64,000 nt of DNA from Ruditapes philippinarum (taxonomy: Eukaryota), in contig NW_026851882.1 in NCBI RefSeq assembly GCF_026571515.1, positions 1-64,000 of the forward strand, given 5' to 3'. The position numbers and the translations under genes were made by a program. Below the pieces are notes generated by a model. That model did not search any database, was not told where the DNA came from, and was given only the letters and a program-made list of their open reading frames with translations. Below, piece after piece: positions 757 through 24,180 of the stretch. Within the stretch, counting starts at the first letter, position 1. Every line of letters begins with the position of its first letter.

Positions 757-1857
757 AAGATCCTATGCATGTCTTCCTTGAAGGAATAGTGCCTGGTGAA
801 CTGTCATTGTTATTGTTTAATCTTGTAAATTCAAAGAAATTGTTCACACTCAAATGGTTAAATGAACAAATACAGAAATTTCCCTATTCATATTTGCATG
901 AAAAAAGTAAGCATGAAGCCACTTTTATAACAGGTTCCATAGAAGAGGGTACTATCATAAAACAGTCATCATCAGCAATGATGACTTTGTGTCATATTTG
1001 TCACTAATAATAGGGCCAAAAATGTGTGCAGGTGATGAAATTTTTTTGAACTTTTTGAGACTGGTTCAGATTGTAATTTTGTGTACCAGTTCATACTGCT
1101 CAAGGGAAACTGCCTCAATATTGAAGATTTTTATTGCTCTCTATCTTTCAAATGGTAAACAGTTGTATCCAAAATCTTCATTTATACCATAAAACATTAT
1201 ATGCTTCATTTTCCAAGACAGTTATTACTGTATGGACCACTCAGAGACCATTGGTCTGTATGGACCACTCAGACACCATTGGTGTATGCGTTTTGAAGCA
1301 AAACATGGATTTTTAAAGCAAAAAAGATAAAGAACTTAAAATACCTTCCATATACTTTGAGTAAACATCATCAGTTATATATGTGTCATAAACAGTCTGG
1401 CTCAAATGGAGAACCAGCTCATGATGGCGACATTGTCAGATTAGGGGTAGAAATAATTTTTTCAGTTGAATATGAAAATTTGAAAGAGCACATGGAAATT
1501 CTTTCACAAACAGAATCTAAAAATGAATGATACATGTACAAAACAAAATCTGTCACCATACAAGGACTGAGGTATGATGTCGGTTGTGATGTAGTTATGG
1601 AGTATTCTGAGGATATTCCAGTTTTTGCCATTCTGAAAGACATTATTGTATATAAAGATGATAAGTACTTTGTATTTAAAACCACTCATGGGCCCGCAGT
1701 ATTTGACAATCATATTCTTTGTTATATTCTAGAGCCAACAGGAAGGATTTCCTTGAATCTTTACACATCTTTAAAATTTAAATGGTCATTGAGTGTATAC
1801 AGGTACAAAGGAATGTTGGTAACACACACACATATGAAATTTTCTAAATTCTTATGA
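757..1857 (+). pseudogene. EnSpm/CACTA (CMC)-type transposase remnant, C-terminal half, frameshifted
   Basis: Joined frames read DPMHVFLEG...LFTLKWLNEQIQKFPY...HYMLHFPRQLLLYGPLRDHWCMRFEAKHGF, the H..H.P....GP....WCMRFE.KH motif I recognise from EnSpm-like transposases. It is disrupted by frameshifts, stops and a 28-bp tandem duplication (1228-1283). The 5' end is truncated at a (GTCC)n remnant (737-757). Confidence 0.8.
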
Positions 1858-1992
1858 CATTGTGTGTTTAATACAAATGCAAAAGAAGTATAAATTTTAA
1901 AAATCTGCAAGTGTAGGTCTAGCTTTTTGAAAATGCCAGAATTCAATTGTTGAAAAATATTTCTGTATCGGTTTGCATTTGAATTGATAAAA

Positions 1993-2077
1993 ATGCCATT
2001 ATATAAAATCGTAAGTTATGAGAAGACTGAGAGGAAGTGTGTTGTGGCCTCTACTTTGGAAGAATTAGCAATAAAAG
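1993..2077 (+). pseudogene. First exon encoding the N-terminal part of a CIDE-N-like domain (probable transposon accessory gene)
   Basis: ATG at 1993 gives MPLYKIVSYEKTERKCVVASTLEELAIK(G), ending at the canonical donor AAG|GTAAGT. It resembles the CIDE-N start (RPFRV....R..R.GV.ASSL.EL..K). Confidence 0.6.
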
Positions 2078-2170
2078 GTAAGTTTTTTATTTCTTTTTTT
2101 TATTACTGAATTTGCATTAGGTAAATGATAGGCTTAAAATTTGTGACGGTATTAAGATATATATATATAA

Positions 2171-3127
2171 ATGGCATTAAAAACTATTTCTACTAAAGAC
2201 AGAGAACAATTTGAAAGAGGATGTAATGTTCTTATGACATCGTTAGGAAAGAAGGAAAAGAGTCAAATGGATTAAAAATGGAGAAAGATTTCTTTGAAAC
2301 GAATATTGTTCCACAGATAAGAAGGAAGATTGCTGAAATTGAAGCAGCAGAGATGATTGGGAAACTAAAGATTGATATTGATTTCAAAATACTAACCAAT
2401 TTGGATGAAAAGTGTGATATGGAAAATATAAAGAAGGAACATGTGCAACTCTTAAAATTGGAAAGTAATTTGCAGGGTTTAACACCTTTTGCTCAGTTCA
2501 GTCGTGGGAGGTTATACTTCACACTGTCAAATAGCATTCAAATAGGAGAAAAATCATTCAAACAAATTGTTGAAGAGGAACTTGACGTTTACAGAACATT
2601 TCCTAGGTACATGGTATTTTTGAATGTAATACTTAACTACCCAAGGCTTATTCTGTGTGATATATCTTTCTCACAGATTGTAAAACACAAGGACAGGTTA
2701 TTAAAATACTTAGAAAGTAAGGAAGGACAGAGCATTCGAGATAGTCTAAGTTTATCCATTGAAGTCATAGCCCAGGGACAGAAAGTAACAATTGAGCAGC
2801 AGGATATGCCCATGGTCCGTAAAGTGAAATTCAACACAGACCCGGATTGGACGCATCATGACAAGGCAGCTACCAATGAAGACGTATCTGAAAGTATACT
2901 TCCGGGCTTGGCGGGGTCCAGTAAGGAAACAAACGAGACTGAAGATTTGGAAGACGTCTTGTAAGTTTCACTTGCTGTCGATATATTTATTAACAAATTT
3001 TTTTTGACTACTTTAATTTCATTGATATATGAATAAAGTCATTCATTTGATTTGCAAATACTTGTATCTTCATTTATTTATTACAGGAGAAATTGCAGTA
3101 TGGAGGAGAAAGACGAGAATCAACAAA
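2171..3127 (+). pseudogene. Orphan helical protein, paralog A (open 228-aa core 2278-2960, intron 2961-3086, exon 2 from 3087, interrupted by a HINE)
   Basis: Long ORF with colinear similarity to 20086-21050. The apparent stop lies inside the donor TT|GTAAGT, and the acceptor TTACAG|G continues LRNCS. The upstream extension MALKTISTKDREQFERG is out of frame with the core. Confidence 0.6.
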
Positions 3128-21820: not shown

Positions 21821-22165
21821 GATGCGGATGACTCCATGGTAACAGAGAAATTAAAAACAAAGGAAGGGTCAGCACCACATCTTTGTGCGTTTATTGATGA
21901 AGGAAAACTCAAAGCAGTTTTCATTGTTGGAGATGACATCTCCATAAGATGTTTTGGGGACTGCCTTCTCTTTGGAATAATTCAGTTAATAAGTGTGTAT
22001 TACATTTTTGACATTTACTATCCTTAGTGTTATGCAATGTTCATGACGCTTTTGCAGATATTTGTTTTTGAAGAAAACAATAGTCTTCAGACATCAAAGA
22101 ACTTCAATTTCTTCATTAAAAAATTGAAATTTGCTTTTGTCAAACAGAAAAAAATTGTACCATAG
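21821..22165 (+). pseudogene. Terminal exon of a SAMD3-like / EnSpm accessory protein (one internal stop)
   Basis: Acceptor ttttcag|, then DADDSMV...APHLCAFI...FIVGDD...GIIQLISVYYIFDIYYP*CYAMFMTLLQIFVF. The YY.F.I.YP......L..LQ motif is one I recognise from EnSpm ORF2/SAMD3-like C-termini. Confidence 0.6.
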
Positions 22166-22661
22166 TAAGGTTTGAACTACAAACCTTGAAAGTTGCTCCA
22201 TTTCAGATTTAATAAAAAAAAAACCTCTTAATTAATTCTAAAAGATTTATCATATTACATATTTATATGATATGATATGATAACAAGAACGTGTTTGTTA
22301 AACACAAATGCCCCCGGCTCAGATTCTTGTCAGTAACAATATTTAAAATAAAGGCTGTATAGGCAAAAGTGTAAAAAATCTATTTTTAGCACTGGTGACC
22401 TTGACCCAACTGACCCCTAACTCCATCCAAACGAAGAATATCATGCAACTTATTTTCCTACCAAATATGAAATAAATATGTCAATATATAAAGGCTGCAT
22501 GGGCATAATGTAAAAATCTATTTGACTTTGACTGTTGACCTTGACCCAACTGACCCCTAACTCGATCCAAAGGAAACATATCACTCCTGACAGTTCAACT
22601 ACATCGTCCTAATAGCCTATAATACATTGATTTTAAGATTAATATATCAAGACAGTTTTAA

Positions 22662-23462
22662 AACAAGATTGCATTTGTGAAAAAAGCAATGCCACCGCAT
22701 AATATAATGCAACACTAAATAGTAGTGTAGGACAAGAAGAGTTATTGTTACTATACAATTGAACTTTGCCAAAATGCAGTTGATTCTAGTGAATTTGGTG
22801 GTCAAGGTCATATTTCACATGGATCAAATTTTATGACTGTACATCAAAGGACAAGAAAGTAGGTCACATAATCAAAATCTAGGTCAGCTGATATCAAAGT
22901 TCAACTTTACATTTAAAATTGTGTACAGTGTCCAAAAGAAATTTCATAGCTGAACATTAAAGTAGGTCATGTGTCAAAATTTAGGTCAGCTGATATTAAA
23001 ATTCAATTTTAAATCTCTAACTGTGCACACGGTCCAAAATTCTTGGCTGTACATCAAAGGACAAGAAAGTAGGTCACTGTCCCCTTCGGTAGAGCAAAAT
23101 TTTGACCCAAGGATTAAATTAAAACAATCCTGATACAGGTCCACCAGACAATGTTTTATGTCAAATATCTAAACTCTAACTTTCTCCTATTCAGAAAACA
23201 TTTGTCTTAGTTTCTGTCTTTACTATAATGTACTCCCCCAAGGCAGGGCCAATTTTGATACCAGAGGTAAAAATTAAACAACTTTGGTTGAGTACCTATA
23301 GATGATATTATATACCAAATAGACTAGTGGTTTTTCACAAGAATATTTTAAGTTTACTATATAATCAATATAACACACATACATTAATCCAGTAAATCCA
23401 CACACTGCACACACATATGTGAATCGCTATTTGCCACCTTATTGCAGATGCTGCGGTGGCAT
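22662..23462 (-). mobile_element. Short (internally reduced) HINE of the TGCCACCGC family
   Basis: Both ends match 4901-7228; only 1-2 degenerate satellite units. Confidence 0.8.
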
Positions 23463-24027
23463 GATCAAAGTTATATTTTGAAATTCATGTTATGAAAAAA
23501 TTAGGACTTTGGCAATTTTGGGAAAAGTACATCAAACAGTTTGGAAATTGGCCTAATTGGGAAAAATTATCAGTTCATTATCAATTCAGACATTTTTTTT
23601 TATTAGTCATAATGAAACGTGTTTTTCACTCTATTTCAATTCTGTTGTTTTAAGCATTACATTTGTTTTCATTCTGTCTTGCAAATAGTGTAAATAAGTG
23701 TGCATATAAAGAAAACAAATCTTAATTTCACAAGTCATCTTGATTTCATTTCTCAATTTTTGATTTTGATATGTGAACATTCAGGGTCATAAATAATTTG
23801 TTAGCTTACATTTTTGTTTCAATGGGGAAATGTTTGTCAAAGATTTGGGTAAAATAGGCATATCCTTTGGTCATATCTCTTTAAGTAAGTATGTTAAATT
23901 TGTGAAGTCTAAAACGAATACAAAATTATCTGACATAAACAATGACATTCTTTAACTGTATTTTTAAGTAATCACAATATTATTTTAATTATTAGTATGT
24001 GAATTATCCTTGACATTATATTTCCAG

Positions 24028-24180
24028 CAACAGGTGATGTTGATTATTGGTGAGGAGAAACAGCCTGTAAAAGCTATCACAAAGGCCATGAGGGGAATGT
24101 TTTCAACAACAGAGCTAGCTGGATGTTCAATGAAAGGCCAGGCAACCAGCATTAGGTCCCAAATCCCAGGCCAGGGAAGT
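24028..24180 (+). pseudogene. BEN-domain-like exon fragment
   Basis: KQPVKAITKAMRGMFSTTELAGCSMKGQ resembles the BEN core (L...F+.+EL...S..G) and follows the acceptor ttccag. Confidence 0.4.

What the first reader, a model, noticed from the sequence alone, without database searches (positions are those of the whole stretch)
757..24180. Possible giant cargo-carrying EnSpm/CACTA element: transposase, CIDE-N-led accessory gene, BEN exons and orphan genes
Seen: co-oriented + strand remnants in this order: EnSpm-like transposase (757-1857), CIDE-N-like first exon (1993-2077), orphan gene A, nested TEs, a weak BEN-like exon (~19113-19345), orphan gene B, a SAMD3-like/EnSpm-ORF2 terminal exon (21821-22165) and a BEN-like exon (24028-24180). 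Known: CACTA/EnSpm elements encode a transposase plus a downstream accessory gene. Inference: these are the remains of one large multi-gene element, or a family of them, with an unusual accessory gene set that later served as a landing pad for other TEs.
Basis: partly seen in the sequence, partly recalled or inferred. Interest (0 to 1): 0.7.

Follow-up and report, generated by a model that had tools for sequence, protein, structure and literature searches.

The report
Pile-up of dead mobile elements
This stretch is not one giant transposon but a heap of broken pieces: the two unexplained genes are ends of two virus-like Polinton elements, one BEN-like exon comes from a different transposon family, and only the transposase, the CIDE-N exon and the last exon likely belong to one ordinary-sized two-gene transposon.

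Summary
The pieces are at the stated coordinates, but they have at least three origins. 'Orphan' genes A and B are paralogues (37%), each followed by a ~165-bp terminus. Their relatives are the last gene of 16-kb Polinton/Maverick elements (integrase, A32 ATPase, PolB motifs, inverted repeats). All 7 other loci have Polinton genes upstream; none has this transposase family. The exon at 24028 belongs to a separate 14.8-kb CCC-ended CACTA element (Transposase_21) found on another contig. The exon at 19113 occurs elsewhere without any transposase, and its BEN label is unconfirmed. The window keeps only the first and last exons. No terminal repeats, no independent copy of the window's arrangement and almost no RNA were found. 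Verdict: a nested graveyard of known element kinds. The modest novelty is a CIDE-N-led second gene in an animal CMCT transposon.

The parts
753..1857 (+). 3' part (~350 aa) of a CMCT/EnSpm-like DDE transposase, frameshifted, 5' part lost
   Evidence: Matches residues 202-553 of the intact C865 frame, profile positions 452-805; family profile matches a Transposase_21 protein at Prob 91%, E=1.1e-6; model of the C865 relative folds like RAG1/Transib, E=1.5e-9
1993..2077 (+). First exon (first half of CIDE-N) of the element's second gene
   Evidence: Pfam CIDE-N E=4.7e-4; same exon position and a second CIDE-N exon over the cut-off in sister elements C14710 and C865
2169..4807 (+). Polinton/Maverick end fragment A: gene A (2171-2964, 5' end lost, frame broken near its start) plus terminal inverted repeat (about 4526-4807)
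3128..4223 (.). High-copy repeat with 164-174-bp tandem units, inserted between gene A and its terminus
   Evidence: a contig of run X5 joins 2992 to 4219 without it (table 8)
4897..7237 (.).
7600..11600 (+). SWIM/YqaJ gene and THAP/HTH_Tnp_4 transposase remnant (ISL2EU-like by recalled domain set), with a repeat inserted at about 9430-10350
   Evidence: SWIM 4.8e-5, HTH_Tnp_4 1.2e-6; THAP 4e-5; YqaJ 0.011, below cut-off
11600..16750 (+). Probable DIRS/Ngaro-like remnant (label recalled, boundaries rough), interrupted by a 145-bp tandem array at 13590-15548
   Evidence: translation only; no Pfam hit and no tblastn hit from other Ngaro-like frames; array
16900..17950 (-). Second HTH_Tnp_4/DDE_Tnp_4 transposase remnant
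   Evidence: DDE_Tnp_4 4.9e-13, HTH_Tnp_4 2e-7
19079..19625 (+). Fragment holding the 'weak BEN-like' exon (19113-19345); copy of a piece of another locus, domain unconfirmed
   Evidence: 94% to C12887:30071-30754; C12887 and C13509 are collinear and hold no transposase of either type
19625..19987 (.). 363-bp high-copy repeat
   Evidence: 38 of the 40 scored matches
20082..21688 (+). Polinton/Maverick end fragment B: gene B (20085-20961, two frame breaks) plus terminal inverted repeat (21524-21688)
21821..22165 (+). Last exon of the CIDE-N-led second gene ('SAMD3-like', label recalled), one internal stop
   Evidence: 36/77 identical to sister family 1, 22/70 to family 2; same exon ends the gene in C5313, C14710, C12901
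23463..24309 (+). Deleted remnant of a different CACTA family (intron, BEN-like exon 24028-24180, subterminal piece)
   Evidence: 68-89% to C9764:32232-34922 and C6480; C9764:20124-34972 has CCCTTGCCAAAA ends and an 841-aa Transposase_21 frame, E=2.7e-14

Best explanation
The stretch is a nested pile of dead mobile elements of at least three origins: two Polinton/Maverick end fragments (genes A and B with their terminal repeats), a remnant of a separate CCC-ended CACTA element carrying the 24028 exon, and the remains of a two-gene CMCT (EnSpm-like) transposon whose transposase, CIDE-N exon and last exon likely come from one copy. Shown: family assignments and linkage in other copies. Inferred: a two-gene element of about 12 kb or more inserted here; Polintons landed in the first and last introns of its second gene; deletions removed the middle exons, most of both Polintons and the 5' part of the transposase; other elements filled in. 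In live copies the DDE enzyme would cut and paste, and the spliced CIDE-N-led protein would likely act as a TnpA-like helper that oligomerises through CIDE-N (by analogy with maize En/Spm; untested, about 0.5). Gene A/B likely encodes a small helical, possibly DNA-binding Polinton accessory protein (untested, about 0.35).
For: A/B: 7 loci besides the window and its haplotype; 6 of 7 carry the terminus after the gene (one only partly; C9445 lacks it); 7 of 7 have Polinton frames upstream, 6 within 8 kb and C14002 at about 18 kb; 0 of 7 hit the transposase profile. C1185:35258-51547 has rve 2.5e-9, Pox_A32 2.6e-5, a PolB frame with the three polymerase motifs and 163-bp inverted ends at 88%; C14032 has inverted ends, a capsid-like frame (Capsid_N 0.055, weak) and a 5-bp flanking duplication. 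Sister transposase loci: 0 of 6 hit A, B or either BEN-like exon; 5 of 6 have CIDE-N exons and 4 of 6 the last exon. Transposase and last exon rank the two sister families alike (51/82 vs 33/80; 36/77 vs 22/70). A 1273-base contig of run X1 matches from 21689 on, the first base after terminus B, and has 681 other bases before it (table 8). RNA depth by bin is 0-1.6 over the transposase 3' part, CIDE-N exon and A, and 0-0.7 over B, the last exon and the 24028 exon (4-5% of two runs read).
Against: No copy of the window's own CMCT family is held apart from the haplotype contig, so joining the first and last exon rests on sister families; they could come from two copies. The 28-aa CIDE-N exon ranks the families the other way (11/26 to family 2, 6/24 to family 1). 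In C11265 the last-exon hit, and in C12901 one of two, is inverted against the transposase; these two contigs share flanks and are probably one locus. Two same-facing Polinton ends 17 kb apart among 15 termini in 1.41 Gb is unlikely by chance (about 0.0025; counts are lower bounds) and is not explained. No target-site duplication flanks A or B. C14002 has a Transposase_21-type fragment 17 kb from its A-family gene.
Confidence: 0.87

Rival explanations
1. One giant CACTA element carried A, B and BEN genes as cargo, or fused with Polinton ends in the manner of Teratorn (recalled).
For: All pieces face the same way; the two Polinton ends lie closer than chance suggests; the transposase-CIDE-A junction is present on the second haplotype and in another individual.
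Against: A/B never seen with this transposase family (0 of 7) nor in sister elements (0 of 6); the 24028 exon has its own element and transposase; no terminal repeats; no second copy.
Confidence: 0.04
2. As in the best explanation, but the CIDE-N exon and the last exon come from two different copies or families of the two-gene transposon that landed near each other.
For: None of the middle exons is in the window; 19.7 kb separate the two exons; the short CIDE-N exon gives a discordant ranking.
Against: Order and strand match the sister layout; transposase and last exon rank the sister families alike; this family has few copies in the genome, so two independent neighbours are unlikely.
Confidence: 0.07
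3. The CIDE-N and last exons are a host gene or pseudogene that only happens to lie behind the transposase.
For: 7 of 9 CIDE-N loci from the Pfam search have no transposase or last-exon hit in the 13-40 kb fetched.
Against: The same exons follow the transposase in two families that are only about 44% alike in the compared piece (35/80) and at unrelated loci.
Confidence: 0.02

Closest known systems
CMCT clade (EnSpm/CACTA, Mirage, Chapaev, Transib, Plavaka, ESTA, Lanisha); PMC12730594, passages read
   Same: C(2)C and H-x(3)-H motifs invariant in 90 relatives; RAG1/Transib fold; profile match to a Transposase_21 protein; transposase plus spliced second gene as in maize En/Spm TnpD/TnpA (PMC1636069, passages read).
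   Different: No Transposase_21 hit for this family (1 of 120 listed relatives carries Plavaka PF18759); termini not found; second gene begins with CIDE-N, which the searches did not show in print.
Polinton/Maverick elements; 10.1101/2023.08.22.554363, passages read
   Same: 13-25 kb, 100-1500-bp inverted ends, 5-8-bp duplication, PolB, integrase, ATPase: C1185 is 16.3 kb and C14032 15.8 kb with 160-280-bp ends.
   Different: Ends begin ATATATATG rather than AG (AG rule recalled); no protease frame seen; terminal gene A/B has no Pfam, fold or atlas match; the window holds only end fragments.
Animal TRC-type CACTA elements (SmTRC1); PMC1636069, passages read
   Same: C9764 element: CCC ends and Transposase_21.
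   Different: 14.8 kb with a head-to-head spliced BEN-like gene; flanks TA/CA give no clean 2-bp duplication; the window has only a deleted remnant.

Membership tests
CMCT clade (window transposase 753-1857) | DDE transposase of RAG1/Transib fold | tested here: met
   Model of the C865 relative (pLDDT 93.6) hits RAG1 at E=1.5e-9 and Transib at 2.6e-4; the window piece is 47-62% identical to it
CMCT clade (window transposase 753-1857) | C(2)C and H(3-4)H motifs between second D and E | tested here: met
   C132, H350, H354 and E374 invariant in alignment A2, CxxC aligned; the window keeps only the H and E part
EnSpm/CACTA proper (window transposase) | Transposase_21 domain | tested here: inconclusive
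   No Pfam hit at E<=1 for the C865 frame; profile-profile match to a Transposase_21 protein, Prob 91%
EnSpm/CACTA proper (window transposase) | CAC/CCC terminal inverted repeats and 2-3-bp duplication | tested here: inconclusive
   None found in the window or in 3 sister loci scanned; the window starts at the contig end and the copies are decayed. File as CMCT, EnSpm-like.
One giant CACTA element with A, B and BEN cargo | Pieces co-occur in the same order in independent copies | tested here: not met
   0 of 6 sister loci and 0 of 7 A-family loci; only the haplotype contig shares the arrangement
Polinton/Maverick (source of A and B) | PolB and retroviral-like integrase in one element | tested here: met
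   C1185: rve 2.5e-9; 894-aa frame with polymerase motifs read by eye and an Endonuclease_7 insert; no Pfam or PDB polymerase hit
Polinton/Maverick (source of A and B) | A32-like packaging ATPase | tested here: met
   Pox_A32 2.6e-5, over the cut-off
Polinton/Maverick (source of A and B) | Major and minor capsid proteins, maturation protease | tested here: inconclusive
   Capsid_N E=0.055 for a C14032 frame, no PDB support; penton label recalled; no protease recognised
Polinton/Maverick (source of A and B) | Long terminal inverted repeats, 13-25 kb length | tested here: met
   C1185 16.3 kb, 163 bp at 88%; C14032 15.8 kb
Polinton/Maverick (source of A and B) | 5-8-bp target-site duplication | tested here: inconclusive
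   Exact 5 bp in 1 of 4 two-ended copies, 4 of 5 bases in another, none in two
TRC-type CACTA (source of exon 24028) | Transposase_21 and CCC-starting inverted ends | tested here: met
   C9764: E=2.7e-14 and CCCTTGCCAAAA at both ends
BEN domain (exons 19113 and 24028) | Pfam BEN match | tested here: inconclusive
   E=0.1 for the C9764 copy of 24028; none for 19113 or its copies; single short exons only
SAMD3-like protein (exon 21821) | Homology to SAMD3 C-terminal region | not tested
   No named relative returned; label is recalled

The most novel reading that the evidence does not exclude
A widespread animal CMCT lineage outside Pfam Transposase_21 encodes a CIDE-N-led helper protein that binds host CIDE-N proteins (DFF40/DFF45 type) or assembles on element ends through CIDE-N, linking a transposon to the apoptotic DNA-fragmentation machinery; and AT-ended Polintons preferentially land in such elements.
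Probability: 0.12. Interest if true: 0.6.

Novelty: new member of a known kind. Interest (0 to 1): 0.22.

Why it matters
As a locus it is ordinary: decayed, nearly silent, made of known element kinds. Three by-products have some use for repeat libraries: an animal CMCT family with a CIDE-N-led second gene, a low-copy Polinton family with AT-starting ends and an unplaced terminal gene, and a complete 14.8-kb CACTA element with a BEN-like gene. If the CIDE-N protein engaged host DFF40/DFF45, that would be a new transposon-host link, but nothing here tests it.

Tried and rejected
Tandem duplication of A to B: rejected as recent, since the genes are 37% alike though the termini are 91% alike. C15507 as a second element copy: rejected; it shares the flanking lipid-droplet hydrolase gene and 15 kb beyond, and its middle is raw-read quality, so the presence of B there cannot be judged. 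Identity of gene A: Pfam none, 1 homologue among 471 candidates, atlas unspecific, none in viral contigs, model pLDDT 64.6 with no Foldseek hit at E<=0.001 and best Z 7.0 on a helix pair; DUF3102 rows at E about 2.3 are not significant. The profile search of 1.84 billion proteins never ran (queue full 7 times), so the family's range is open. Terminal repeats for the CMCT families: none. Internal-deletion model for A with the (AT)n at 2157-2169 as left end: flanks give no duplication. Other Polinton genes in the window: none of 17 C1185 frames hit except A/B and the terminus. Papers: search listings seen; passages read in PMC10294476, PMC3417536, 10.1101/2023.08.22.554363, PMC1636069, PMC12730594, PMC8905726, PMC7642931; no supplements opened, and Repbase/Dfam are not on hand, so these families may already be catalogued there.
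Full report
The window is the first 64 kb of contig C369 of a 1.41-Gb animal genome, probably a mollusc (run labels). I checked each piece, searched the genome for its relatives, fetched 34 regions totalling 1.29 Mb including the window, and asked which pieces travel together.

Observation. All named pieces are present on the + strand. The transposase is only the 3' part: it matches residues 202-553 of a 565-aa open frame on C865 and profile positions 452-805, with several frameshifts. 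The exon at 1993-2077 has a weak CIDE-N match (E=4.7e-4). Neither BEN-like exon has a Pfam BEN match in the window. 'SAMD3-like' is a recalled label that no call confirmed.

Genes A and B. They are paralogues (57/155 identical). Each is followed by a terminus ending CCCCATATATCATATATAT (4641-4807, 21524-21688). The family has 7 further loci besides the second haplotype. Six of the 7 carry the terminus behind the gene, one of them only in part. All 7 have Polinton frames upstream, six within 8 kb and one at about 18 kb. On C1185 the gene is the last one of a 16.3-kb unit with the terminus inverted at both ends (163 bp, 88%), an rve integrase (2.5e-9), an A32 ATPase (2.6e-5) and an 894-aa frame with family-B polymerase motifs read by eye. 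C14032 is a second such unit of 15.8 kb with a weak capsid match (0.055) and an exact 5-bp flanking duplication. These sizes fit the description of Polintons in 10.1101/2023.08.22.554363 (passages read). None of the 7 loci hits the transposase profile; one has a fragment of the other, Transposase_21 type 17 kb away. In the window, homology to Polintons runs from 2169 to 4807 and from 20082 to 21688, and no other Polinton gene is left. A has lost its 5' end and both genes have frame breaks. What the protein does is open: no family, fold or atlas match; the model is helical with a helix-turn-helix-like stretch, so a DNA-binding accessory role is my guess.

The transposase and its second gene. 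The genome holds six other transposase loci in two families, 57-62% and 41% alike to the window piece. The family is common in animals (258 relatives), folds like RAG1 and Transib, keeps the C(2)C and H-x(3)-H motifs that PMC12730594 (passages read) gives for the CMCT clade, and matches a Transposase_21 protein by profile but not Pfam directly. Five of the 6 loci have CIDE-N exons behind the transposase, the second exon over the Pfam cut-off in the two tested; 4 of 6 have the last exon. C5313 and C14710 show the whole series on one strand; C12901 and C11265, probably one locus, carry an inverted copy of the last exon. None of the 6 hits A, B or a BEN-like exon. The window lacks all middle exons. 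Transposase and last exon are both closer to family 1 than to family 2, while the 28-aa CIDE-N exon is not. A contig from another individual joins other sequence exactly at 21689, the base after terminus B, as expected if a form without the Polinton end exists; its 681 other bases were not shown. No terminal repeats were found, so the element is filed as CMCT, EnSpm-like, not as proven CACTA.

BEN-like exons. The exon at 24028 and its flanks (23463-24309) match C9764 and C6480 at 68-89%. On C9764 they are part of a 14.8-kb element with CCC ends and its own Transposase_21 frame facing away from the BEN-like gene, like the animal TRC elements of PMC1636069 (passages read). That transposase is only about 21% alike to the window's family. 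The exon at 19113 matches one other locus (C12887 and C13509, collinear) that has no transposase of either type in 50-60 kb; its upstream frames are absent from the window.

Second copy and expression. C15507 shares window 3-2750 and 24475-39594 and the flanking hydrolase gene, with a raw-read-quality middle: a haplotype, not a transposed copy. DNA searches found no other copy. RNA depth is near zero over all genes discussed (two runs of one study, 4-5% read).

History, inferred. A two-gene CMCT transposon inserted; Polintons entered the first and last introns of its second gene; deletions removed the middle exons, most of both Polintons and the transposase 5' part; ISL2EU-like, probable Ngaro-like and tandem-repeat elements filled in; a piece of a second CACTA family lies just beyond. 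Unexplained: two same-facing Polinton ends within 17 kb when only 15 termini were found genome-wide (chance about 0.0025), and no duplications at either junction.

Novelty. Each element kind is known, and Mavericks and EnSpm are reported in bivalves (PMC10294476 and PMC8905726, passages read). Verdict: the giant cargo element is not supported; interest 0.22.

Noticed in passing
G000:C9764:20124-34972: Complete 14.8-kb CACTA element with CCCTTGCCAAAA ends, an open 841-aa Transposase_21 frame and a head-to-head spliced BEN-like gene.
   Followed up: partly
G000:C1185:35258-51547 and C14032:147646-163476: Two near-full Polinton-like copies with ends starting ATATATATG; several frames are broken. 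In C14032 no A-family gene was hit.
   Followed up: partly
G000:C3310:24577-24852 and C13503:128979-129260: About 280-bp elements made only of the two Polinton termini (MITE-like derivatives).
   Followed up: partly
window 4641-4807 and 21524-21688 against other copies: Termini are 86-94% alike across copies whose neighbouring gene is only 35-42% alike in protein.
   Followed up: no
window 2750-17195 against G000:C15507:42967-36598: The second haplotype breaks off inside gene A at window 2750 and holds 6.4 kb of other sequence in place of 14.4 kb; contigs of runs X1 and X5 also break at 2750.
   Followed up: partly
window 26606-27340, - strand: Lipid-droplet hydrolase (LIDHydrolase 1.3e-55) exon; host gene that marks the flank.
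   Followed up: partly
G000:C2610, C8738, C1065, C8956, C5183, C2779, C2468: Seven further CIDE-N loci with no transposase in the stretches fetched; more than the usual few host genes (recalled).
   Followed up: partly
G000:C15507:53282-55769, - strand: Integrase frame followed by an OTU-like protease region (Ginger-like by recall) upstream of the truncated transposase.
   Followed up: no
window 59896-60864 and 61600-62690: A 60-bp-period tandem array with a 318-aa open frame, and a 164-bp array of the same family as the insertion at 3128-4223.
   Followed up: no
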